Assembly: GCA_021780535.1 (NCBI GenBank)
Contig: JAJXYN010000011.1
Coordinates: forward strand, 15,295 to 79,294
Reading direction: 5' to 3'
Length of the DNA stretch: 64,000 nucleotides
DNA from: a bacterium
GTDB taxonomy: Bacteria; Patescibacteriota; Patescibacteriia; JAGPKW01
A model generated the notes under the pieces. It was not told where the DNA came from. It ran no database searches and saw only the letters and a list, made by a program, of their open reading frames with translations. The translations under genes and the position numbers were made by a program. This document shows positions 167 through 54,534 of this stretch, in pieces; position 1 is the first letter of the stretch; the number at the start of each line of letters is the position of its first letter.

Positions 167-955
167 ATGAAACTTTCTTTGATTATTGTTGCTTACAACA
201 TGAAAGATCTCGTTTTTAAGCAAATTAGTCATCTACACAATATAAAAACCAATATTGATTATGAAGTTATTATTGTTGATAATGGATCAACGGATAATAT
301 TATAAGTATTTCATCAGATTTTTCTGATGTAAAATTTGTTTTGTCTAAAAATAATTTAGGATATTTTGGTGGAGCTAATTTGGGTGTAAAAGTTTCATCA
401 GGAGAGTATTTATTTATTTTAAATTCTGATATATTAGCCTCTGATTATTGTTTTGATGAACTTATAAATTTTATTGAAAATAATGAAAATATTGGCATAA
501 TAGCTCCAAAACTTATATATCCTGATGATAGAGGTGTTCAAAATTCTTGTTTTAGATTTCATAACATAATAACTCCAATTATTAGAAGAACTTTTTTAGG
601 AGAAACTAAATTTGGTATGTTTGAAAATAGTAAAATGCTAATGGAAGATTTTGATCATAATGATGTTATAGAATGTGATTGGATACTTGGGGCTGCTTTT
701 ATTATTAAAAAAGATTTTTTAAAAAGTATTGGAGGTTTTGATGAAAGATATTTTCTTTATTATGAAGATATGGATATATGTAAAACAACGTGGATAAATG
801 ATAAAAAAGTTGTTTATTATAATAAAACTTATATGATTCATGATCATGCTAGAAATTCTGCAAAAAATAAAACTTTTTTAGATTTTCTTAGAAATAAAAC
901 TTTAAAAATACATATTATATCTAGTATTAAGTATTTTTTTAAATTTATAATTTGA
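167..955 (+). CDS. family 2 glycosyltransferase (GT2)
   Basis: N-terminal LSLIIVAYN...VIIVDNGSTDN and DxD-type motifs are typical of the GT-A fold, and there is an ED motif near the C-terminus. Confidence 0.75.
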   Translation: MKLSLIIVAYNMKDLVFKQISHLHNIKTNIDYEVIIVDNGSTDNIISISSDFSDVKFVLSKNNLGYFGGANLGVKVSSGEYLFILNSDILASDYCFDELINFIENNENIGIIAPKLIYPDDRGVQNSCFRFHNIITPIIRRTFLGETKFGMFENSKMLMEDFDHNDVIECDWILGAAFIIKKDFLKSIGGFDERYFLYYEDMDICKTTWINDKKVVYYNKTYMIHDHARNSAKNKTFLDFLRNKTLKIHIISSIKYFFKFII

Positions 956-38546: not shown

Positions 38547-38576
38547 TAAACTAAAATATATATTTTAACGTTTTTT

Positions 38577-38634
38577 AATTTTATTGTGTAAAACTAGGCA
38601 AATAAATAATTTGACTGATACAATAAATTGACAA
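38577..38634 (+). repeat. partial copy (3' promoter part) of the accessory-cassette promoter repeat
   Basis: AATTTTATTGTGTAAAACTAGGCAAATAAATAATTTGACTGATACAAT. Confidence 0.5.
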
Positions 38635-38724
38635 AAATGAATACTATGATAAAATAATAATACTTACTATTGGTAGGGCATAGCTTAAGCGTTAGTACTT
38701 AATTCAGACCCCCAGATAAAAATA

Positions 38725-39228
38725 CTACGATTTTGTCGTAGTATTTTTGTTTTCTAAAAATTTACAATCATTTAAAAAAATTAAAAATTTATTAGGGGTA
38801 ACTGTTTTTAATAACATAGAAAGCTTTTTTCTATTTGGAATAATTAATTTATAAAATTTATTATTTGATATTAGATATTTAACAATGCAATCAAAATCAC
38901 CATCGCCAGTAACTACGATACATTTATTATAAATATTAAAATAAATCATAATATTTAAAATCATTAAAGAATCTACATTTCCTTTTATTTTACCATTATT
39001 ATTTATTAAAATATTTTTAAAAACTAAGATATAACCAATGTTTTTTAAATATTCATATAAATTTTTATTTTTCTCAATAAAGCCAATAAATAAAAACATT
39101 TTATTTGATTTATATTTTTCTTTAAGATAAATATAAAATCTTTGATAATCTAATTTCCAACCAAGTTCCAACACACCTAGATTTAAATTTTGATTATCTA
39201 TAAAAGTATAGATAATTTCTTTTTCCAT
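38725..39228 (-). CDS. NYN/LabA-like (PIN-like) domain protein
   Basis: The VVTGDGDFDCIVKYL motif is characteristic of the NYN domain. A bidirectional hairpin terminator lies at its 3' end. Confidence 0.6.
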   Translation of the reverse strand: MEKEIIYTFIDNQNLNLGVLELGWKLDYQRFYIYLKEKYKSNKMFLFIGFIEKNKNLYEYLKNIGYILVFKNILINNNGKIKGNVDSLMILNIMIYFNIYNKCIVVTGDGDFDCIVKYLISNNKFYKLIIPNRKKLSMLLKTVTPNKFLIFLNDCKFLENKNTTTKS

Positions 39229-39262
39229 GTTTTGTTTTAAAATTAAACTATTACAAACATAT

Positions 39263-39389
39263 CAAACACTAAAACATGCAACATTAATTTCTATATTAAT
39301 TCTTTATTAATATTCCTAAATTTTGTTTTATATTAAATATTAATTTTATTGTGCAAAACTAGACAAATAAATAATTTGGCTGATACAAT
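39263..39389 (+). repeat. accessory-cassette promoter repeat, copy A
   Basis: CAAACACTAAAACAT...ATTAATTCTTTATTAATATT...AATTTTATTGTGCAAAACTAGACAAATAAATAATTTGGCTGATACAAT. Shared with 43538-43680 and 44287-44406, and more distantly 53893-53965. Confidence 0.55.
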
Positions 39390-42924: not shown

Positions 42925-43022
42925 TTTGACGAGATATTCTATTCTATGATATTATTTTAATATCACCATGATAGAGCATGTTTTTGGCTCCAATATTTGT
43001 CCAAAAAATACTCTCTATTAAT

Positions 43023-43048
43023 AAAAAACACCTTAACTGGTGCTTTTT
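43023..43048. terminator. bidirectional hairpin terminator
   Basis: AAAAACACCTTAACTGGTGCTTTTT, with A-run and T-run flanks on either side. Confidence 0.5.
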
Positions 43049-43119
43049 AATTTTAAAACTGAAAAATTCAAATTTAAAAACAATTTTAAAATCTAAATTT
43101 TAAAACATATAAAACATAG

Positions 43120-43476
43120 TTACTTAAGATTGTTGAATATCTTTGATAATATTAAATTTATTTCTCTTGCTTCTTTCCAGAATATTCTTAATTTTTCTTT
43201 ATTATCATCTTCATAATTAACTAGTATTTCTATCCAATATTCTGTTTCTTTCGCTTCTTTTCTTGATATTGCTATTTTGTTTCTAAAATCTTTTTTAGAA
43301 CAGCTATTATTAGCTTCTATATAGTTTGCACCAATAGAAGTTGAACATCTAAATAATTGATTTAATAAGGAATCTAAATCTTTATTAATATATTTATTTT
43401 CTTTTCTAATTTCTTTAATAAACAATATCAAATCTTTAATAAATAATTTAATTCTATCTTCAAGATCATATTTCAT
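43120..43476 (-). CDS. four-helix-bundle protein (23S rRNA IVS protein / Avd-like family)
   Basis: STSIGANYIEA...SKKDFRNKIAISRKEAKETEYWIEIL matches the TIGR02436-type four-helix-bundle family. Confidence 0.7.
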   Translation of the reverse strand: MKYDLEDRIKLFIKDLILFIKEIRKENKYINKDLDSLLNQLFRCSTSIGANYIEANNSCSKKDFRNKIAISRKEAKETEYWIEILVNYEDDNKEKLRIFWKEAREINLILSKIFNNLK

Positions 43477-43537
43477 AGTATTTGTTTTAAAATTTAAATT
43501 TTAATATTTAGATTTGTTTTGAATTTTGGTTTTTTTA

Positions 43538-43680
43538 GTTTTAAAATTTCTACTATACCAAACACTAAAACATACAACATTAATTTCCATATTAATTCTT
43601 TATTAATATTTTTAAATTTTGTTTTATATTAAATGTTAATTTTATTGTGCAAAACTAGATAAATAAATAATTTGACGAAT
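43538..43680 (+). repeat. accessory-cassette promoter repeat, copy B
   Basis: GTTTTAAAATTTCTACTATACCAAACACTAAAACATACAACATTAATTTCCATATTAATTCTTTATTAATATTTTTAAATTTTGTTTTATATTAAATGTTAATTTTATTGTGCAAAACTAGATAAATAAATAATTTGACG. Confidence 0.6.
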
Positions 43681-43699
43681 TTTTAGAATTTGATATAAT
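43672..43699 (+). promoter_or_regulatory. sigma70-like promoter TTGACG-16-TATAAT
   Basis: TTGACGAATTTTTAGAATTTGATATAAT. The same TAGAATTTGATATAA box recurs at 39415-39430. Confidence 0.45.
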
Positions 43700-43702
43700 A
43701 TT

Positions 43703-43868
43703 TAATATAAATTCCTTCGGGACTACAAAGATGTTTAACATCTTTGGGAAAAAGCTTTTATTGAATTATGTCCATAAAAGTTTACAACAATGGCTTCGGC
43801 CCTCCCTCTAGTTAATTCTAGTAGGGTAAAAATTGAAAAACTACGCAATTAATTTGCGTAGTTTTTCT
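43703..43868 (+). ncRNA. candidate small RNA (promoter-to-terminator unit) converging on the MazF-like gene
   Basis: Starts downstream of the 43672 promoter. Contains CCTTCGGG and the perfect hairpin CAAAGATG-TTTA-ACATCTTTG, and ends at terminator hairpin CTACGCAATTAATTTGCGTAG plus T-run. Confidence 0.25.
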
Positions 43869-44233
43869 TTTATTATTTTGAAATCTTCTATTTTTATATA
43901 TCCATTTAAATATTTTAATCTTTTACTATCTATTATTCTCAATTGTGATAACATTGCTGTACTTTCTATGTCTTTTATATAATTAAACTTATGATAGAAT
44001 TTATTTTCTTGTTTTTTTGATGAAGTTAATGGTATTCCAAAAAATAATCTATCATTAAATTTTTTTAATATTAAAACTGGTCTCAAAAATGATTTATTAT
44101 CACCATTTTGTTCAAAACCTATGTTTAACCCTAAAAAACAAAACCAAATTTCTCTTTCATGAAAAAATACATTATGTTCTTTTTTATTTAACTCTGATTT
44201 TTTATTGTGCCAATTTAAAATTTCTTTTTCCAT
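43841..44233 (-). CDS. MazF/PemK-family toxin-like protein (orphan)
   Basis: REIWFCFLGLNIGFEQNG...RPVLILKK...IPLTS...SQLRIIDSKRL parallels Kid/PemK (EIWLVSLDPTAGHEQQGTRPVLIV...VPVTS...RTID). Confidence 0.65.
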   Translation of the reverse strand: MEKEILNWHNKKSELNKKEHNVFFHEREIWFCFLGLNIGFEQNGDNKSFLRPVLILKKFNDRLFFGIPLTSSKKQENKFYHKFNYIKDIESTAMLSQLRIIDSKRLKYLNGYIKIEDFKIIKEKLRKLIA

Positions 44234-44286
44234 GTTTATTTAGTTTTAGTTTCTTTGTACTTCGAAGCTTTAGCGAAGAAGTATCA

Positions 44287-44406
44287 GTTTTAAAATTTCT
44301 ACTATACCAAACACTAAAACATACGACATTAATTTTTATATTAATTCTTTATTAATATTTTTAAATTTTGTTTTATTCTAGTTAATATCCAAATTGTGCA
44401 TAAAAG
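44287..44406 (+). repeat. accessory-cassette promoter repeat, copy C
   Basis: The 5' two-thirds are near-identical to copy B; the 3' part diverges. Confidence 0.55.
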
Positions 44407-49246: not shown

Positions 49247-51889
49247 ATGATGTTTTATAAAAAAATTAATTTAAAAAAAATACTTATATTTATTGTATGC
49301 TTTTTTGTAATATTTCTATCAAGATGGAAATTATTTTTAAATAGTGGAGTAATAGGCCATAATTGGGATTGGTCAATACCATTATTGAAAAGTTCTAATT
49401 TAGAATTATTTAACCAAGGGAAATATATTTGGAATACTTTTTTTCTTGGCGTTTCGGATATTTTTTTTAGATTTTGGAATTTTTATTTGCATTTTTTAGG
49501 AATATTTTTAGGTGGTGAATTTTTATCTAAATTCATTATATTTTTTATATTAAGTTGTGGATTTTTGTCGTTTTATTTTTTTATAAAATTTTTTATAAAA
49601 AAAGTAATCAATTTTGATTATAATAAAGAAAAAGAGGATTATTTATTGTTCATAATCCCATCATTGTTATATGTTTTAAATCCTTTTATTTTTAATGATA
49701 TTATATCAGGAAGTCTTATATATCTTATAGCGTACTCCTTATTACCATTAACTTTACTATTTTTTATAAAATATATATATACTAATAAATTTAAAAATGT
49801 TATATATTTTTCATTTGTAATATTTTTTGTTTCTGGATCAACCCAAATGTATATATTTTCTATTATTTTATGCTTTTCTTTTTTAATTTATTATTTTTTT
49901 AACAAAAAATCTATATTAAATGGATTTAAAATTTTTTCTTTTTCTCTTTTAATAATTTCTATTCTGTTAATTCCTTTGTTATATAATAGTATTAATTTAC
50001 AAAAAACTACTTATTCTAAAAGAGCTAGTGCTAATACTGCAGTTCAAAAATACAGTAATCAGTTTTTAAATACACAACAAAACATATTAAGATCTTTTAC
50101 CTTGGAATCTTTTTTAGATAGAAACATTTTTTCGCATTTTTTAATTATACCATATTATTTTATATTTTATTGTTCTATTTTTTTATTAATAATAATAAGT
50201 ATATTTTTTGTTATTAATAACAAAAAATTAAGTAAAAAAAATATTATATTTGTTTTGCTATCATTTATTATCTCCATAACCGTTGTATCAATTTCTAAAA
50301 ATCCAATTACGGGTAATATGTTTCTATGGTTAATGGATAATTTTATCCCAGCAAGAGCTTTTAGCACAACTTATCATCTTGTATTTTTCTCAACATTTTC
50401 AACCTGTTTATTAATTAGCTTTGCTTTATTAAATCAAAACAAAAAATACTATGCTGTATTTATTGTTTTAATCATGTTAATTAATATTCAAGTTTTTGTA
50501 TTTGGAGATAATGGCATAAATATTTTAAAAAATCAAAAAAGAGATAGCATTGATCAATATTATCCAAACAATGAATTTATAAAATATTCCCTAGCTACTA
50601 ATCTAAAAAAACTTGATTATAGAATGTTATCAATACCAATGTCATATTCTCCTTATTATTTAAAAACAAAAAATCAAAACTATGGACAAGGCGGAGACCC
50701 TGATTTATTAACATTAAAACCATCAACATTTGAAAATTTTGTAAACACATCATACGTACTAGAAAAGGATTTGTTATATAATAAAAACGTAAATAATAAT
50801 TTATATTCATTATTTAATTTTAGAGATTTTATAATTAAAACTGATGTTGTCAGTAATTTTTCAAATTATAAAAATGATTATGATTACTCAAAATTAATTA
50901 AAAAATTTGAAAACAATATGCTATTTAAATCAAAATATTTTAATAATGGTGAATTTAATATTTTTCTTCAACACTTCTACACCCCCCAAACTATCATAAA
51001 ATCATCTCAAAATATCAGCGTATTGCCAGATATTGTTTCTCAAAATGATTATAACATTCGTTCTGCTACTTATTTTTCTGATAATACTTACAATGCTGAC
51101 GATAAATCTGTTTTTAACCCTAACGCTATTACGAAGACTGAAGTTAAAAATACTCCTACTATTGAATTTAAAAAAGTTAATCCTACTAAATATAAAGTTA
51201 TTATTCATGATGCAACTTCTGAATTTCCATTGATATTCTCTGAATCGTTCCATGATGGGTGGAAAGCATATTTAACTTCATCAAATAATTTAAAAACTGA
51301 AAAAACCAAAATTCAAAACGAGGAAATATTAAAAAATTATAAAATATTGGATGGGAATAGTGATGATCAAGCTTCTATTGACGAACTTAAGAGTTATATT
51401 GATAAAGGCTATATTTCTTCTTTGGGTGATTTGAAACAAAAAAATATTAAACATGTTAAATGGGATAATAATAAAGAGGTTTTTGATTATAATGAACCTT
51501 ATAAGATAGACTTTATTTCTAAAGATTTTAACGGCACTATTCAAAACGATAATCTTGACAGTGGCCATTTCTATGAAACTTGGTCAAAAACTCCTATTAG
51601 CGACTCTAATCATTCTATGGTTAATGGTTATGCTAATTCTTGGAATATTGATCCTAATAGTATTTGCAATAATAATTCTAAATGCACTAAGAATGCTGAT
51701 GGTAGTTATGACATGGAATTTACTATTGAATTTTGGCCTCAAAGATTATTCTATCTTGGTTTAATAATTTCCGGTACTACACTAATCGGTTGTATTGTTT
51801 ATTTGATTGTTGATGGTGTTAAAAATAAGAAAAAGAAAGAAGAAGAAAAAGAAAATAATAATCATGACCTAATTTCATATTTTGATTAA
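49247..51889 (+). CDS. large polytopic membrane protein (about 13 TM) with C-terminal extracytoplasmic domain
   Basis: 880 aa; N-terminal multi-TM region followed by a roughly 450 aa soluble domain. The architecture resembles GT-C-type glycosyltransferases or polymerases (inference only). Confidence 0.45.
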   Translation: MMFYKKINLKKILIFIVCFFVIFLSRWKLFLNSGVIGHNWDWSIPLLKSSNLELFNQGKYIWNTFFLGVSDIFFRFWNFYLHFLGIFLGGEFLSKFIIFFILSCGFLSFYFFIKFFIKKVINFDYNKEKEDYLLFIIPSLLYVLNPFIFNDIISGSLIYLIAYSLLPLTLLFFIKYIYTNKFKNVIYFSFVIFFVSGSTQMYIFSIILCFSFLIYYFFNKKSILNGFKIFSFSLLIISILLIPLLYNSINLQKTTYSKRASANTAVQKYSNQFLNTQQNILRSFTLESFLDRNIFSHFLIIPYYFIFYCSIFLLIIISIFFVINNKKLSKKNIIFVLLSFIISITVVSISKNPITGNMFLWLMDNFIPARAFSTTYHLVFFSTFSTCLLISFALLNQNKKYYAVFIVLIMLINIQVFVFGDNGINILKNQKRDSIDQYYPNNEFIKYSLATNLKKLDYRMLSIPMSYSPYYLKTKNQNYGQGGDPDLLTLKPSTFENFVNTSYVLEKDLLYNKNVNNNLYSLFNFRDFIIKTDVVSNFSNYKNDYDYSKLIKKFENNMLFKSKYFNNGEFNIFLQHFYTPQTIIKSSQNISVLPDIVSQNDYNIRSATYFSDNTYNADDKSVFNPNAITKTEVKNTPTIEFKKVNPTKYKVIIHDATSEFPLIFSESFHDGWKAYLTSSNNLKTEKTKIQNEEILKNYKILDGNSDDQASIDELKSYIDKGYISSLGDLKQKNIKHVKWDNNKEVFDYNEPYKIDFISKDFNGTIQNDNLDSGHFYETWSKTPISDSNHSMVNGYANSWNIDPNSICNNNSKCTKNADGSYDMEFTIEFWPQRLFYLGLIISGTTLIGCIVYLIVDGVKNKKKKEEEKENNNHDLISYFD

Positions 51890-51891
51890 AT

Positions 51892-52010
51892 GCTTTTTTA
51901 TAAAATAGGGTAGAGATACTCTATTTTAGTTTAATTCTTTAGTTTTTTAGTTTTGAATTTTATTTTTATTTGACGTATTATTATTTTTTGATATAATTTA
52001 AATAATAACG
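51892..52010 (+). repeat. direct repeat DR1 (terminator-like hairpin plus TTGACG-16-TATAAT promoter)
   Basis: Near-identical to 52741-52859: CTTTTTTATAAAATAGGGTAGAGATACTCTATTTTAGTTTAATT...TTTATTTGACG(T/G)ATTATTATTTTTTGATATAATTTAAATAA. Confidence 0.65.
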
Positions 52011-52098
52011 AGACGCCCGGGACAAATTCCAGGGGAAAAGATATTTCGTAAGATTTATCTACTGGGCTGTCTGGCCACCTTTGATGGTGGCTTTTTTA
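52004..52098 (+). ncRNA. candidate roughly 95 nt small RNA, cis-antisense to the 3' end of the DUF3800 gene
   Basis: TTGACG (51970-51975) and TATAAT (51992-51997) with a 16 nt spacer. Then a GC-rich segment CGAGACGCCCGGGACAAATTCCAGGGG...CTGGGCTGTCTGG ending in terminator GGCCACC-TTTGA-TGGTGGC plus TTTTTT. Confidence 0.3.
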
Positions 52099-52654
52099 GT
52101 TCTATAACTTTATATTTTAATATTTTTTTTAATATAATATTTAAATCATTGTCTAATTTATTTTCATTATCAAAATAATATCTAAAAAAACCTGCGATAT
52201 AATCAGCAATTTTTATACCTATAGAATTATTATCTTTTATGGTTCTTATTTTACTTATAGATACATTTCTATCTCTAAAGTATTTTTTAATTTTTCTATC
52301 ATATTTTTTGGATTTTTTACCATCAATAAAAACATAATTATTCTTATCATTTTCAATAAAATCAATTAAAGAGCTTTCTAATTCTTTTTCTTGATTTATT
52401 GGGTTTATTAATATTTTTATTTTAAAATTTACTTTTTGATCTGCTATTTCTTGTAAAACTCTTTTCTTAACATTCCAATTATCCTCACTCCAATGAAATG
52501 ATTTGATTTTTAATATCTTTTCTAAATCAATAATTATCTTTTCTATAAAAACATAATTATCTTCATTTATAAACACAAAAGCAAAACACGAATACTTTAT
52601 ATCTTTATTTACACCAGATTCATCTATAAATATATAAGTTTTTTCTTTTTCCAT
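52055..52654 (-). CDS. DUF3800 domain protein
   Basis: N-terminal YIFIDESG and C-terminal IKIADYIAG motifs are typical of DUF3800. The last 13 codons read through the GC-rich + strand terminator hairpin. Confidence 0.6.
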   Translation of the reverse strand: MEKEKTYIFIDESGVNKDIKYSCFAFVFINEDNYVFIEKIIIDLEKILKIKSFHWSEDNWNVKKRVLQEIADQKVNFKIKILINPINQEKELESSLIDFIENDKNNYVFIDGKKSKKYDRKIKKYFRDRNVSISKIRTIKDNNSIGIKIADYIAGFFRYYFDNENKLDNDLNIILKKILKYKVIELKKPPSKVARQPSR

Positions 52655-52740
52655 TTTTTATAATTAATCATTAATCTATTTATTATAGACTACTTATTAA
52701 TAAATGGCTAATATTAGAATATTAATTAAGAATTAATTAA

Positions 52741-52859
52741 CTTTTTTATAAAATAGGGTAGAGATACTCTATTTTAGTTTAATTTTTTAGTTTTTTAGTT
52801 TTGAATTTTATTTTTATTTGACGGATTATTATTTTTTGATATAATTTAAATAACAATGC
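52741..52859 (+). repeat. direct repeat DR2 (copy of DR1)
   Basis: Its TTGACG-16-TATAAT promoter fires antisense into the 3' end of the second MazF-like gene and is followed by CCTTCGGG. Confidence 0.65.
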
Positions 52860-52936
52860 CTTCGGGCCCCGAGATTTCAATATTTATTTATTGATTTCGC
52901 ATATATAAAAGCAGTCAGAAATGGCTGATTTTATAT

Positions 52937-53323
52937 TTAAAACATTAACTCTCTTAGTCTTTCTTTTAATAGGGCAAAATCATCTTTTGATATATATCCT
53001 ATTTTTCTATCTATTCTTTTTGAATCTATTAATCTTATTTGAGAAAGAATTGCAAATGATTTTTTATTTAAAAATACAAATTCAAAATGATATTTATCTT
53101 TATTAACTTTACTCGTAAGTGGAATACAGACAAAAATTCTATTATTAAATTTTTTTAAAATTAAAACTGGCCTTTCAAATTCAAAACCACCACCATTTTG
53201 TTCAAAACCTATATTTTTACCTAGATTAACAAAACAAATTTCTCTTTCTTTATAGAACACTATTTTATCCTTATCTTCTATTTTCTTTTTTAGACTATTC
53301 CATTTATCAAATTCTTTTTCCAT
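52937..53323 (-). CDS. MazF/PemK-family toxin-like protein (orphan paralog)
   Basis: Paralog of 43841-44233 (EREICFVNLGKNIGFEQNG...RPVLILKK...IPLTS...SQIRLIDSKRI). Its 5' leader and first four codons are identical to those of the DUF3800 gene. Confidence 0.65.
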   Translation of the reverse strand: MEKEFDKWNSLKKKIEDKDKIVFYKEREICFVNLGKNIGFEQNGGGFEFERPVLILKKFNNRIFVCIPLTSKVNKDKYHFEFVFLNKKSFAILSQIRLIDSKRIDRKIGYISKDDFALLKERLRELMF

Positions 53324-53344
53324 TTTTTATAATTAATCATTAAT

Positions 53345-53842
53345 CTATTTATTATTTCTATCCCCATTCCACATTTTTGGATTATTGATAATATAACGTT
53401 TTATTTTTAAATATTCTATTTCGTTACGAATTATATGATCATGAAATGATTTTTGCCATTTGAAATAATATGGTTTTATTTTATTGATTTCACGGGATGC
53501 AGACGATTTAAATAAACCAATGATTAATGATAATAATTGATTATTACGTTCCCGTAGGTGCCAGATTAATCTGGCACCTACATCACAATTTTTATTTATT
53601 TCAAAAATAAAATGTAAATGATTCGGCATTATACAATATTCATGTATTATTATTGTTTTATGAAAATTTTCTATATTTAATATTTTATTTTTCACAATTA
53701 TACCAATATTGTTTAAAATCATTTTATCGTTTTCAATATTTCCAAAATATGGATATCTATCACCAGTGCATATTGTAATAAAATAAAATCCATTATTTGA
53801 ATAATTCCATTTATTCCATCTGTTATTCTTATTTTGATACAT
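53345..53842 (-). mobile_element. IS200-like Y1 (HUH) transposase of the REP-associated tyrosine transposase (RAYT) type
   Basis: HUH motif MPNHLHFIF, GLFKSSASREIN, and C-terminal FKWQKSFHDHIIRNEIEYLKIKRYIINNP (WQ..FHDH.IR.E...YI..NP, the RAYT signature). A 28 bp perfect palindrome sits inside the ORF at 53554-53581. Confidence 0.7.
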
Positions 53843-53892: not shown

Positions 53893-53965
53893 TTCTATAT
53901 TAATATTTCTATTAATTTTAGATTAATATTTCTAAATTTTGTTTTATCTTAAGTATTAATTTTAT
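53893..53965 (+). repeat. accessory-cassette promoter repeat, diverged copy D
   Basis: TTCTATATTAATATTTCTATTAATTTTAGATTAATATTTCTAAATTTTGTTTTATCTTAAGTATTAATTTTATTGTGTAAAAAG. Confidence 0.4.
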
Positions 53966-54123
53966 TGTGTAAAAAGATTTATCTTTGTTAAAATTTCGAC
54001 TGATGAAGTATGACGGTAATATTCTATTTTATTTTTATTTGACGGATTATTATTTTTTGATGAAATTTTTTTATTTATATTACGTAATATATAATTATAC
54101 AACCTAATACCAATGGAGGGGTT

Positions 54124-54534
54124 ATGTTGAACATATCCAAGCATTTTTACAATAACCACAAAGTTTTTTCTTCATTTGTTATTTTTATTATACTTGTTAT
54201 TTGTTTATATTATATTGGAAGACTTTATATATCTACCCATAATAACTCTTTTTTAAATAATAATATCATTCTAGCAAGCAAAAATTCTATTGAATTGTTT
54301 TTTGCATATTTCACTACTGGTCTTATCATATCTATCAATTTTGTTTTAACAATATTTATAGTTTATAAACTTTATAATATTTTTATTGAAATATCACACA
54401 ATGTTGATAAAAAAATAAAAATAATAGAAAATGACATGGGCTCAACAAAAGCTGAATTAGAGATGGAGTTTATGGCATATATTCTTATATTATTTGCTTC
54501 TTCTTTATCATTATTTTTTCTATTTTTTGGATAA
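54124..54534 (+). CDS. hypothetical small membrane protein
   Basis: GGAGGGG RBS and 3 TM helices. A decayed copy of the DR promoter (TTGACGG...TGATGAAAT) lies upstream. Confidence 0.4.
   Translation: MLNISKHFYNNHKVFSSFVIFIILVICLYYIGRLYISTHNNSFLNNNIILASKNSIELFFAYFTTGLIISINFVLTIFIVYKLYNIFIEISHNVDKKIKIIENDMGSTKAELEMEFMAYILILFASSLSLFFLFFG

What the first reader, a model, noticed from the sequence alone, without database searches (positions are those of the whole stretch)
51892..52859. DUF3800 gene plus a promoter-to-terminator sRNA-like unit bracketed by 119 bp direct repeats
DR1 (51892-52010) and DR2 (52741-52859) are near-identical. Each holds a terminator-like hairpin and a TTGACG-16-TATAAT promoter. 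They bracket a 730 bp segment holding the DUF3800 gene (minus strand) and a GC-rich roughly 95 nt unit (52004-52098) that begins at the DR1 promoter and ends at a strong intrinsic terminator. That unit is antisense to the last 13 codons of the DUF3800 ORF, which are translated straight through the hairpin. The architecture fits insertion or excision by recombination between the direct repeats, or a cis-antisense sRNA controlling the DUF3800 gene. The DUF3800 gene and the second MazF-like gene also share an identical 35 bp 5' leader and first four codons (52655-52695 and 53324-53355), which argues for module shuffling.
Basis: seen in the sequence. Interest (0 to 1): 0.55.

Follow-up and report, generated by a model that had tools for sequence, protein, structure and literature searches.

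The report
DUF3800 RNA–nuclease module in tandem
The GC-rich unit is a catalogued but functionally unexplained small RNA (Rfam DUF3800-II) next to its usual partner, an RNase H-like nuclease gene. The "direct repeats" are one promoter block duplicated in front of two adjacent small-RNA/nuclease modules, which suggests the RNAs hold the nucleases in check.

Summary
DR1 (51893-52008) and DR2 (52741-52856) are 97-98% identical, and each carries a hairpin and a TTGACG-16-TATAAT promoter. The 44-nt leader repeat is exact.

The roughly 95-nt unit is not new. It matches Rfam RF02961, DUF3800-II RNA (64.5 bits, threshold 43.2), described in 2017 with no known function.

The same layout recurs in 13 of 16 related metagenomic loci: promoter, RNA, a terminator shared by both strands, and a convergent DUF3800 gene. 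The 10-residue C-terminal extension is specific to this window. In close homologs the stop codon sits in the terminator loop.

DR2 drives a second conserved small RNA convergent with the PemK/MazF gene. That RNA family is absent from Rfam and was found at 68 of 80 PemK loci, none with a conserved protein antitoxin. The window holds five such modules (NYN, 23S_rRNA_IVP, PemK twice, DUF3800).

The DUF3800 protein models as an RNase HII-like enzyme with an invariant D-E-D-D set.

- **Best reading:** tandem, portable RNA–nuclease pairs that work like type III toxin–antitoxin systems. This is inferred, not shown.
- **Excision between the repeats:** possible but unsupported.
- **Novelty:** new member of a known kind.
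- **Most valuable part:** the surrounding context, not the flagged unit.

The parts
51893..52008 (+). DR1. The left 75 nt hold an AU-rich hairpin (51901-51928) and a T-rich tract, which probably terminate the upstream 880-aa gene. The right 41 nt are the small-RNA promoter (-35 at 51970-51975, TG-extended -10 at 51990-51997) and the first bases of the RNA.
   Evidence: Homology to the L002 module starts only at 51968.
52005..52076 (+). DUF3800-II RNA (Rfam RF02961). It has a 5' AUAACGAG tail and a closing stem enclosing two hairpins.
   Evidence: cmscan 64.5 bits against gathering score 43.2, E 4.7e-11. The minimum-free-energy fold agrees, -35 kcal/mol, z -4.35.
52073..52098 (.). Intrinsic terminator hairpin (GGCCACC-UUUGAU-GGUGGCU) plus a U-run. 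It ends the RNA and lies inside the 3' end of the convergent DUF3800 ORF.
   Evidence: Homologs place the gene's stop codon in this hairpin's loop.
52055..52654 (-). DUF3800 gene, 199 aa, RNase HII-like with D11, E12, D111 and D151. The last 10 residues (PSKVARQPSR) are a lineage-specific read-through tail.
   Evidence: Pfam PF12686 E 1.6e-8. Alignments A1 and A6. AlphaFold2 pLDDT 92.8, with the last 10-residue block at 61. Foldseek top hits are RNase H2/HII/HIII.
52655..52745 (-). Upstream region of the DUF3800 gene, with a promoter-like site (-35 TAGCCA, -10 TATAAT, 52710..52682). The distal part is conserved with L002 and marks the right end of the portable unit.
52643..52686 (-). 44-nt leader plus the first four codons (MEKE), identical to 53312-53355 upstream of the PemK gene. 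It was probably copied from the PemK gene.
   Evidence: The PemK homolog in L010 also starts MEKE, while the DUF3800 homolog in L002 starts MEGDNKK.
52741..52856 (+). DR2, a second copy of the hairpin plus promoter block (-35 at 52818-52823, -10 at 52840-52845). It drives RNA-B.
52851..52936 (+). RNA-B, a divergent AT-rich member of a PemK-associated small-RNA family. It has a 5' ACAAUG tail, hairpin GCC-UUCG-GGC (52858-52867), a second hairpin, and a terminator with its core at 52912-52927.
   Evidence: Fold -23.8 kcal/mol, z -4.33. Clear homologs lie next to a 65%-identical PemK gene. Covariance model R1 gives 19.1 bits, E 0.013, at 52851-52945. No Rfam match.
52937..53323 (-). PemK/MazF-like endoribonuclease gene (PemK-2), convergent with RNA-B.
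   Evidence: Pfam PF02452 E 1.3e-12. Alignment A2.
53345..53842 (-). REP-associated tyrosine transposase-like (IS200-like Y1) gene directly upstream of PemK-2. It is not found next to PemK in the other loci.
   Evidence: NCBIfam REP_Tyr_transpos 65.5 bits, below its cut-off of 80. Pfam Y1_Tnp E 7.6e-6. tblastn hits only in the window and L007.
54026..54068 (+). DR3, a partial third copy of the promoter core with a mutated -10 (TGATGAAAT), upstream of ORF 54124-54534.

Best explanation
**What it is.** The flagged segment is one compact two-gene module.
- A near-consensus promoter makes a roughly 95-nt structured small RNA, the Rfam family DUF3800-II.
- The RNA ends in an intrinsic terminator that is shared with the convergent gene for a 199-aa RNase HII-like DUF3800 nuclease.
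- The portable unit is 51968-52745.

**What the repeats are.** The module sits directly next to a second module of the same design, RNA-B plus a PemK/MazF-like RNase. The 116-nt repeats are one hairpin-plus-promoter block now present in front of both small RNAs. The 44-nt repeat is one leader and start now present in front of both nuclease genes. Tandem juxtaposition followed by recombination or gene conversion probably produced both repeats.

**How it most likely works (inferred, not shown).**
- The abundant small RNA binds its nuclease and keeps it inactive, as the RNA antitoxin does in type III toxin–antitoxin and abortive-infection systems.
- If RNA supply falls, for example through transcription shut-off or loss of the module, the nuclease is freed.
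- The terminator overlap may also reduce nuclease mRNA levels.
For: **Identity of the RNA and the protein**
- The RNA matches Rfam RF02961 at 64.5 bits against a threshold of 43.2.
- The protein matches Pfam DUF3800.
- The AlphaFold2 model has pLDDT 92.8. Its best PDB matches are RNase H2/HII/HIII, E 1e-5, TM 0.5-0.59.
- D11, E12, D111 and D151 are invariant in 49 clade members.

**The layout is conserved**
- A DUF3800-II RNA lies convergent and abutting the gene in L001-L006.
- The same holds in 13 of 16 metagenomic loci whose proteins are 31-68% identical.
- In those 13, the first in-frame stop after the tblastn match lies from 36 nt beyond to 27 nt inside the 3' end of the RNA motif. L095 and L096 are exceptions: the match ran through the real stop, which the sequence places in the terminator loop.

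**The module is portable**
- Window 51968-52745 is 80% identical over 786 nt to L002, where the neighbouring genes are different.

**Other nucleases use the same design**
- A PemK-associated small RNA lies convergent with the gene at 68 of 80 loci.
- In its alignment 94.3% of cells are paired, 14 of 17 pairs show compensatory change, and 0 of 500 shuffles reach this.
- All 40 RNAs that could be parsed form a clean second hairpin, with 32 different sequences.
- Upstream ORFs at PemK loci are unrelated to each other, so there is no conserved protein antitoxin.
- NYN genes and a 23S_rRNA_IVP gene have the same layout in the window.
- DUF3800 and PemK modules are also neighbours in L099.

**Similarities to type III systems**
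- The RNA is duplicated in tandem at L095, L096, L116 and window 43703-43872.
- The RNA promoter matches 11 of 12 consensus positions. The gene's promoter matches 10 of 12.

**Precedents from papers**
- The abiF RNA motif, another gene-linked motif, was shown to be an RNA antitoxin that binds AbiF (PMC12373285).
- Type VII retrons pair a DUF3800 protein or domain with a reverse transcriptase and its non-coding RNA (PMC7736814).
Against: - No expression, toxicity or binding data exist for any DUF3800 RNA. Weinberg et al. offered no hypothesis for its function.
- The gene order differs from known type III systems. Here the RNA is convergent and usually single-copy. In type III systems it is upstream, co-directional and repeated.
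- PADLOC, the anti-phage defence library, gives no hit for any of the proteins.
- No relatives of the DUF3800 protein were found in viral contigs, and only four weak PemK relatives.
- An RNase H-like enzyme may need the RNA as a substrate or cofactor rather than being inhibited by it.
- The history of the repeats cannot be reconstructed from one genome.
Confidence: 0.5

Rival explanations
1. **Cis-antisense (type I-like) control.** The small RNA acts through its complementarity to the 3' end of the nuclease mRNA. Pairing across the shared terminator would trigger RNase III cleavage, or convergent transcription would interfere with the gene, lowering nuclease expression without any RNA–protein contact.
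For: - The RNA and ORF overlap by 44 nt.
- A shared bidirectional terminator containing the stop codon recurs in the DUF3800, PemK and NYN modules.
- Type I systems such as par/Fst use convergent RNAs with a common terminator. This rests on my own knowledge and on paper titles listed.
Against: - The overlap is limited to the terminator. In PemK-2 it covers only the 3' UTR.
- The conserved, covarying parts of the RNAs lie outside the overlap.
- RNA pairing with the cognate mRNA 5' region is no better than shuffled controls, z from -1.7 to +0.5.
- The toxins are 128-199-aa nucleases, not small membrane peptides.
- The window's translated tail is not conserved.
Confidence: 0.15
2. **RNA as cofactor, guide or substrate.** The small RNA is a functional partner that the nuclease needs rather than an inhibitor. 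It could form a ribonucleoprotein that recognises nucleic acids, or be an RNA that the RNase H-like enzyme processes.
For: - The 5' end UAACAAG is conserved even between different DUF3800-linked RNAs (L101 and L108 against DUF3800-II).
- The protein has an RNase HII-like fold.
- DUF3800 domains accompany Cas12a2, Cas12a3 and retron systems that work with RNA or RNA–DNA hybrids.
- Other gene-linked RNA motifs from the same 2017 survey later proved to be guide RNAs. This rests on my own knowledge.
Against: - The RNAs have no variable, spacer-like segment. Their variation is compensatory stem change.
- Three unrelated nuclease folds (RNase H-like, PemK, NYN) share the same layout. A common control logic explains this more easily than a common guide mechanism.
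- PemK/MazF enzymes are not known to use guides. This rests on my own knowledge.
Confidence: 0.2
3. **Repeat-bounded mobile cassette.** The 848-bp segment is inserted and excised by recombination between the 116-nt repeats, possibly helped by the neighbouring Y1 (RAYT-like) transposase acting on the repeat hairpins.
For: - Other modules in the window are also flanked by direct repeats: 43537-43627 and 44286-44376 at 97%, and about 38575-38640 and 39318-39385.
- The L002 module is flanked by a 35-nt repeat at 80% identity.
- A Y1 transposase-like gene lies 0.5 kb away.
- Each repeat hairpin contains GTAG. This is the cleavage motif of E. coli REP elements, from my own knowledge.
Against: - Both other contigs that carry the locus have both repeat copies. 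No empty site was seen.
- The hairpin occurs only twice in 64 kb, so it is not a dispersed REP-like element.
- The RAYT-like gene is absent from the 80 other PemK loci and from the other DUF3800 loci.
- The L002 homology starts at the promoter, not at the left end of the repeat.
- A 116-nt repeat is far longer than a normal target-site duplication.
- DR2 has a plain function as the promoter of RNA-B.
Confidence: 0.12

Closest known systems
DUF3800-II RNA motif (Rfam RF02961; Weinberg et al. 2017, PMC5737381)
   Same: - The window RNA passes the family's curated score.
- It lies next to a DUF3800 gene.
- It is followed by a Rho-independent terminator, as the paper reports for several DUF3800 motifs.
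   Different: - Nothing defining differs.
- New here is the description of a fixed convergent layout with a shared terminator, tandem placement beside a PemK module, and duplicated promoter and leader blocks.
- The family's function is still unknown.
Type III toxin–antitoxin systems (ToxIN, CptIN, TenpIN) and the abiF-motif RNA RCd22 with AbiF (PMC12373285)
   Same: - A nuclease is tightly linked to a small structured non-coding RNA.
- The RNA has its own strong promoter and terminator.
- The RNA is sometimes duplicated in tandem.
- There is no protein antitoxin.
   Different: - In known type III systems the RNA lies upstream and co-directional, is usually repeated, and is processed by the toxin.
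- Here it is convergent, shares the terminator, and is usually single-copy.
- The proteins belong to other families: RNase H-like, PemK and NYN.
- Toxicity and binding are untested.
Type I toxin–antitoxin loci with convergent RNAs and a bidirectional terminator (par/Fst of pAD1; bsrG/SR4)
   Same: Convergent transcription of an RNA and a toxin mRNA that overlap at their 3' ends.
   Different: - The toxins here are nucleases of 128-199 aa, not short hydrophobic peptides.
- No 5' complementarity was found.
- The conserved RNA structure lies outside the overlap.
Type VII retrons (reverse transcriptase plus DUF3800; PMC7736814)
   Same: - A DUF3800, RNase H2-like protein or domain is coupled to a non-coding nucleic-acid partner.
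- It has an N-terminal DE motif and lacks the Q of the QxxD motif.
- The window clade has (K/R)xAD at that position, as seen in alignments A1 and A6.
   Different: - No reverse transcriptase is encoded in the module's 848 bp, whose only long ORF is the DUF3800 gene.
- The partner is a plain small RNA, not msDNA.
MazEF/PemIK type II toxin–antitoxin systems
   Same: The neighbouring gene is a true PemK-family protein (PF02452). The arginine and threonine that I take, from memory, to be catalytic in MazF are nearly invariant (R27, T70 in A2).
   Different: There is no MazE/PemI-like gene. Upstream ORFs at 73 loci are unrelated to each other. The conserved partner is a small RNA.

Membership tests
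Rfam RF02961 DUF3800-II RNA | Covariance-model score at or above the curated gathering score of 43.2 bits | tested here: met
   64.5 bits, E 4.7e-11, model positions 1-69 of 69, at 52005-52076(+).
Rfam RF02961 DUF3800-II RNA | Closing stem that encloses two hairpins | tested here: met
   The minimum-free-energy fold reproduces it, -35 kcal/mol, z -4.35. The cmscan alignment shows two non-standard pairs in the second hairpin.
Rfam RF02961 DUF3800-II RNA | Lies next to a gene that encodes a DUF3800 domain | tested here: met
   ORF 52055-52654(-) matches PF12686, E 1.6e-8, 35.8 bits against cut-off 21. The same pairing holds in 13 of 16 related loci.
Pfam PF12686 DUF3800 (RNase H-like) | RNase H-like fold with conserved acidic catalytic residues (N-terminal DE motif) | tested here: met
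   pLDDT 92.8. Foldseek top hits are RNase H2/HII/HIII. D11, E12, D111 and D151 are invariant in 49 sequences.
Pfam PF12686 DUF3800 (RNase H-like) | C-terminal QxxD motif, as described in PMC7736814 | tested here: not met
   The aspartate (D151) is invariant, but the Q position is K or R (IKIAD, LRLAD) in A1 and A6. The retron-linked DUF3800 proteins also lack this Q.
Type III toxin–antitoxin system | RNA gene upstream of and co-directional with the toxin gene, made of tandem repeats, separated from it by a terminator | tested here: not met
   The RNA is convergent and single-copy in the window. Tandem copies occur only at L095 and L096.
Type III toxin–antitoxin system | The protein is toxic and is neutralised by direct binding of the RNA | not testable with these tools
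   This needs expression and binding experiments. Only a nuclease fold and an intact catalytic set are shown.
Type I toxin–antitoxin system (convergent antisense class) | Small hydrophobic toxin peptide | tested here: not met
   The partner is a 199-aa soluble RNase H-like protein.
Type I toxin–antitoxin system (convergent antisense class) | Antisense overlap with, or complementarity to, the toxin mRNA | tested here: inconclusive
   A 44-nt 3' overlap exists. Pairing with the 5' region is no better than shuffled controls, z -1.7.
Type II MazEF/PemIK (for the neighbouring PemK gene) | Adjacent co-transcribed protein antitoxin | tested here: not met
   Of 73 loci, 38 have a same-strand upstream ORF. 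These are mostly 150-490 aa, and 32 of the 38 have no homolog among the others. In the window the upstream gene is RAYT-like.
Transposable element or cassette bounded by repeats | A recombinase inside the bounded segment, and an empty-site allele | tested here: not met
   The DR1-DR2 segment encodes only the RNA and the DUF3800 protein. Both other contigs carry both repeats. Sampling is very thin.

The most novel reading that the evidence does not exclude
The DUF3800 RNAs, together with apparently undescribed small-RNA families next to PemK/MazF, NYN and 23S_rRNA_IVP genes, form one widespread class of portable two-part modules in Patescibacteria and Campylobacterota. In each, a structured small RNA is transcribed convergently and shares a bidirectional terminator with a nuclease gene. 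The RNA would act as the nuclease's antitoxin. This would give the DUF3800 RNAs a function for the first time. It would also show that MazF-family toxins, the textbook type II toxins, can be controlled by an RNA instead of a protein.
Probability: 0.35. Interest if true: 0.8.

Novelty: new member of a known kind. Interest (0 to 1): 0.5.

Why it matters
Eleven different DUF3800-linked RNA structures were described in 2017, and the authors proposed no function for them. My full-text search for DUF3800 found no later paper that assigns one.

This locus places a DUF3800 module side by side with a PemK-toxin module of the same design, and the two share identical regulatory ends. The comparison shows that the same layout is conserved for three unrelated nuclease families, none of which has a protein antitoxin.

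That turns an unexplained RNA motif into a concrete hypothesis: the RNA is an antitoxin for the nuclease. It can be tested with simple co-expression experiments.

It also suggests that many "orphan" MazF and NYN genes in small-genome bacteria have an RNA partner that has been overlooked.

Tried and rejected
- **Small RNA as a hidden peptide gene.** Rejected. The AUG in ACAAAUGG is ACG or AUU in many family members, and no ribosome-binding site is visible.
- **RNA-B as a degenerate DUF3800-II RNA or another Rfam family.** Rejected. There is no Rfam match at E up to 10 apart from chance-level hits. It is instead homologous to the PemK-linked RNAs.
- **tRNA or tmRNA.** None in the window.
- **Known defence systems.** No PADLOC hit.
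- **Phage origin.** No DUF3800 relatives, only four weak PemK relatives, and no repeat hairpin in viral contigs.
- **par/Fst-like 5' complementarity.** Not better than shuffled controls. The first version of that script timed out.
- **Repeat hairpin as a dispersed REP element for the RAYT-like gene.** There are only two copies in 64 kb. RAYT is not linked to PemK or DUF3800 elsewhere.
- **Simple sequence motifs for RNA-B in 80 PemK loci.** The search failed until the downstream regions were read directly.
- **MAFFT alignment of the variable second hairpin.** It could not be aligned well, so I assessed it by folding each sequence separately.
- **Supplementary text of the 2017 paper.** Not held.
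- **One 2026 preprint that mentions DUF3800.** Not readable.
- **Empty-site search in metagenomes.** Not possible, because the single metagenome scan went to DUF3800 relatives.
Full report

Yes.
- The two repeats, 51893-52008 and 52741-52856, are 116 nt and 97% identical without gaps. blastn gives 98.2% over 113 nt, E 1e-54.
- Each repeat has an AU-rich 12-bp hairpin. The 77-nt stretch folds at -13.7 kcal/mol, z -2.2. It is weak as a terminator, and the scan does not list it.
- Each repeat has a near-consensus promoter, TTGACG, 16 nt, TATAAT, with an extended TG (51970-51997 and 52818-52845; 11 of 12 matches).
- That promoter core occurs three times in the window against 0 expected. The third copy, at 54026-54068, is partial and has a damaged -10.
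- The unit that follows DR1 is 47% GC in a window of about 25% GC. It folds at -35 kcal/mol, z -4.35, and ends in a good terminator at 52073-52092 plus a T-run.
- The ORF 52055-52654(-) is a DUF3800 protein (PF12686, E 1.6e-8). Its last 13 codons and stop run through the terminator and into the RNA.
- The leader repeat is 44 nt and exact: 52643-52686 and 53312-53355.
- Two other assemblies of the same organism (L007 from GCA_021833805.1, and L008) show both repeats at the same spacing.
- The organism is a Patescibacteria (CPR) metagenome-assembled genome, judging from the names given to its closest protein relatives.

**2. What the GC-rich unit is**

It is a catalogued RNA. A scan of the whole window against Rfam 15 gives one match above threshold: RF02961, DUF3800-II RNA, at 52005-52076(+), 64.5 bits against a threshold of 43.2, over the full model.

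Weinberg et al. 2017 found eleven unrelated RNA structures near DUF3800 genes. They noted that several are followed by terminators and stated that no functional hypothesis was obvious to them (PMC5737381).

**3. The layout is conserved, but the translated tail is not**

- The 68%-identical homolog P0002 has the same arrangement in six contigs. The promoter is TTGACGG...TGATATAAT, the DUF3800-II RNA scores 67.9 bits, and the gene's stop codon comes one base after the RNA motif.
- In a metagenome scan, 13 of 16 loci encoding proteins 31-68% identical carry a DUF3800-II RNA on the opposite strand directly downstream of the gene.
- In those 13, the first in-frame stop after the tblastn match lies from 36 nt beyond to 27 nt inside the 3' end of the RNA motif. 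L095 and L096 are exceptions, because the match ran through the real stop. The sequence places that stop in the terminator loop.
- Of the three loci without a match, L109 is cut off by the contig end. L101 and L108 carry a different RNA with no Rfam match that begins with the same UAACAAG.
- Close homologs end ...VIELKKPQ*, with the stop codon in the terminator loop. The window protein ends ...VIELKKPPSKVARQPSR* because its loop has no in-frame stop.
- The last ten-residue block of the model has pLDDT 61, against 88-98 for the rest.
The extension is lineage-specific and is a by-product of tight packing against a shared terminator.

**4. What the repeats are**

Nucleotide homology between the window and L002 runs from 51968 to 52745, at 80% over 786 nt. 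It starts exactly at the -35 box of the RNA promoter and stops at the DR2 boundary. The neighbouring genes differ: an 880-aa protein with no Pfam match and PemK here, SpoU methylase, NUDIX and a tRNA in L002. The portable unit is therefore promoter, RNA, gene and about 90 nt of upstream region.

The left 75 nt of DR1 (hairpin and T-rich tract) are local sequence. They probably terminate the 880-aa gene that ends at 51889.

DR2 is not a passive flank. It drives a second promoter-to-terminator unit, RNA-B (about 52852-52936; -23.8 kcal/mol, z -4.33), which is convergent with the PemK/MazF gene at 52937-53323.

The picture is two tandem modules of the same design. Their RNA-side ends (116 nt) and gene-side ends (44 nt) have become identical.
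- The MEKE start is native to the PemK side. The L010 homolog also starts MEKE.
- It is foreign to the DUF3800 side. The L002 homolog starts MEGDNKK.
- This points to recombination or gene conversion between neighbouring modules.

Deletion of the DUF3800 module by recombination between the repeats is possible, but I found no evidence for it.

**5. RNA-B belongs to a large family that appears undescribed**

- A 65%-identical PemK homolog has a clearly homologous RNA in the same place.
- Of 80 genome loci with PemK relatives (40-61% identical; Patescibacteria and Campylobacterota), nearly all show the same pattern directly downstream and convergent:
  - a TTGACA...TATAAT promoter;
  - 5' ACAAAUG;
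  - a GGC-UUCG-GCC hairpin;
  - a second hairpin;
  - an A-rich linker;
  - a terminator flanked by an A-tract and a U-tract, whose 5' arm contains the antisense of the PemK stop codon.
- A covariance model built from 32 of these RNAs hits the right place and strand in 68 of 80 loci. In the window it hits 43783-43876 (50.1 bits), 43706-43742 (21.5 bits) and RNA-B (52851-52945, 19.1 bits, E 0.013).
- On the seed alignment 94.3% of cells are paired and 14 of 17 pairs show compensatory change. No shuffle out of 500 reaches these values, and slid controls are far lower.
- All 40 RNAs that could be parsed form a clean second hairpin, with 32 distinct sequences and mostly GNRA or UUCG loops.
- Rfam has no match for these RNAs. 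Three full-text searches found no description. This does not prove the family is unpublished.
- No conserved protein antitoxin exists. Of 73 loci, 38 have a same-strand upstream ORF, and 32 of those 38 have no homolog among the others.

**6. The window holds five such modules**

Besides DUF3800 and PemK-2 there are three more.
- **NYN-domain gene 38725-39228(-)** (PF01936). It has a convergent promoter at 38628-38655 and an RNA ending in a terminator that spans the stop codon.
- **PemK-1, 43841-44233(-).** Its RNA has two tandem hairpin-pair units.
- **23S_rRNA_IVP gene 43120-43476(-).** It has a convergent promoter at 42926-42955 and a structured RNA.

Four NYN homolog loci (53-57% identical) show the same layout, one with two tandem RNA copies, and none has an Rfam match.

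Other shared features:
- The four RNase genes all start MEKE.
- Modules are flanked by direct repeats of a second intergenic repeat family, here called X: 39259-39378, 43537-43674, 44286-44376 and 53899-53974.
- A DUF3800 module and a PemK module are also neighbours in the unrelated contig L099, in the opposite order.

**7. The protein**

- The clade is small: 124 representatives at E up to 1e-3 in a library of 1.84 billion proteins.
- In 49 full-length members, D11, E12, D111 and D151 are invariant.
- The AlphaFold2 model is confident, with pLDDT 92.8 and pTM 0.89.
- Its best PDB matches are RNase H2, HII and HIII, E about 1e-5 and TM 0.5-0.59.
- This agrees with published predictions (PMC10910872 and PMC7736814).
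- The IDESG start resembles the IDEAG motif of RNase HII. That comparison is from my own knowledge.
- The protein is therefore very likely an active nuclease.

**8. How it most likely works**

*Shown.* A conserved, structured small RNA with a strong promoter is fixed next to a nuclease gene. The two are inherited and moved as one unit. Three unrelated RNase families have the same design and lack a protein antitoxin.

*Inferred.* The RNA binds and restrains its nuclease, as in type III toxin–antitoxin and abortive-infection systems. Supporting points:
- Tandem RNA copies occur in some loci.
- The promoters are asymmetric in strength.
- The abiF RNA motif was shown in 2025 to neutralise AbiF by direct binding (PMC12373285).
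- DUF3800 is the accessory protein or domain of type VII retrons.

*Against.* The gene order differs from known type III systems, no experiment exists, and there are no hits in defence or phage collections.

*Rivals.*
- Pure antisense control is disfavoured. The overlap is confined to the terminator, the conserved structure lies outside it, and no 5' complementarity is seen.
- A role as cofactor or guide is not excluded.
- The repeats could mark a mobile cassette, but evidence is thin.

My confidence that the unit is a DUF3800-II RNA–nuclease module is about 0.95. My confidence in the antitoxin mechanism is about 0.4.

**9. Verdict**

The flagged RNA is a new member of a known family whose function is open. 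The repeats are explained as a duplicated promoter block heading two tandem modules. The most valuable result is the context. It links DUF3800 RNAs to a broader, apparently undescribed set of RNA–RNase modules and yields a simple, testable hypothesis.

Noticed in passing
window 52851-52945(+), with loci L009-L093: A conserved small RNA convergent with PemK/MazF-like genes. It has a 5' ACAAAUG tail, a UUCG hairpin, a variable covarying hairpin, and a bidirectional terminator that contains the stop codon. It is present at 68 of 80 loci, is absent from Rfam 15, and has no conserved protein antitoxin beside it.
   Followed up: yes
window 43672-44233: A first PemK-like gene (43841-44233, minus strand) with a convergent RNA made of two tandem hairpin-pair units (43703-43782 and 43783-43872). 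The whole module is bracketed by 91-nt direct repeats at 97% identity (43537-43627 and 44286-44376).
   Followed up: partly
window 38628-39228; L114-L117: An NYN-domain RNase gene (38725-39228, minus strand) with a convergent promoter, a structured RNA, and a terminator spanning its stop codon. Four homolog loci have the same layout, and L116 has two tandem RNA copies. No Rfam match.
   Followed up: partly
window 42926-43476: A 23S_rRNA_IVP (four-helix-bundle) gene at 43120-43476(-) faces a promoter (42926-42955) and a structured RNA with a terminator (about 42960-43052; z -3.9). This is a possible fifth module. Its conservation was not checked.
   Followed up: no
window 38575-38615, 39259-39378, 43537-43674, 44286-44376, 53899-53974: A second intergenic repeat family of 90-120 nt at 87-97% identity lies upstream of each minus-strand nuclease gene or operon. 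Its right end leads into plus-strand TTGAC promoters. Its role is unknown: a shared regulatory region or a recombination substrate.
   Followed up: partly
L095 899-1088 and L096 1489-1667: Two tandem copies of the DUF3800-II RNA (87-nt repeat, 91-92% identical, 111-122 nt apart) downstream of one DUF3800 gene. This resembles the repeated antitoxin RNAs of type III systems.
   Followed up: partly
L101 about 2070-2200 and L108 about 445-600 (minus strand): DUF3800 homologs with a different convergent RNA that has no Rfam match even at E up to 1. It begins with the same UAACAAG as DUF3800-II RNA.
   Followed up: partly
L099 9-1752: A DUF3800 gene with its DUF3800-II RNA lies about 0.7 kb from a PemK homolog with its own RNA. 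The order is opposite to the window, so the two module types co-locate in an unrelated genome.
   Followed up: partly
L002 2889-2923 and 3764-3798: The DUF3800 module of a related genome is flanked by a 35-nt direct repeat at 80% identity, with an 18-of-19 core around AAACCAAGTTGAATC. This could be an insertion scar.
   Followed up: no
L010 about 700-800, compared with L009: A perfect palindromic insertion of about 70 nt splits the -35 region of the PemK-linked RNA promoter in one contig but not in its near-identical relative. It may be a small hairpin element.
   Followed up: no
L104 2070-3480: A DUF3800 module sits directly beside a 5S rRNA gene and a 23S rRNA gene that carries a group I intron.
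   Followed up: no
window 39217-39228, 44222-44233, 52643-52654, 53312-53323: All four RNase genes start with the same 12 nt, ATGGAAAAAGAA (MEKE). I did not test whether this is a shared translation signal or only AT-rich codon bias.
   Followed up: no
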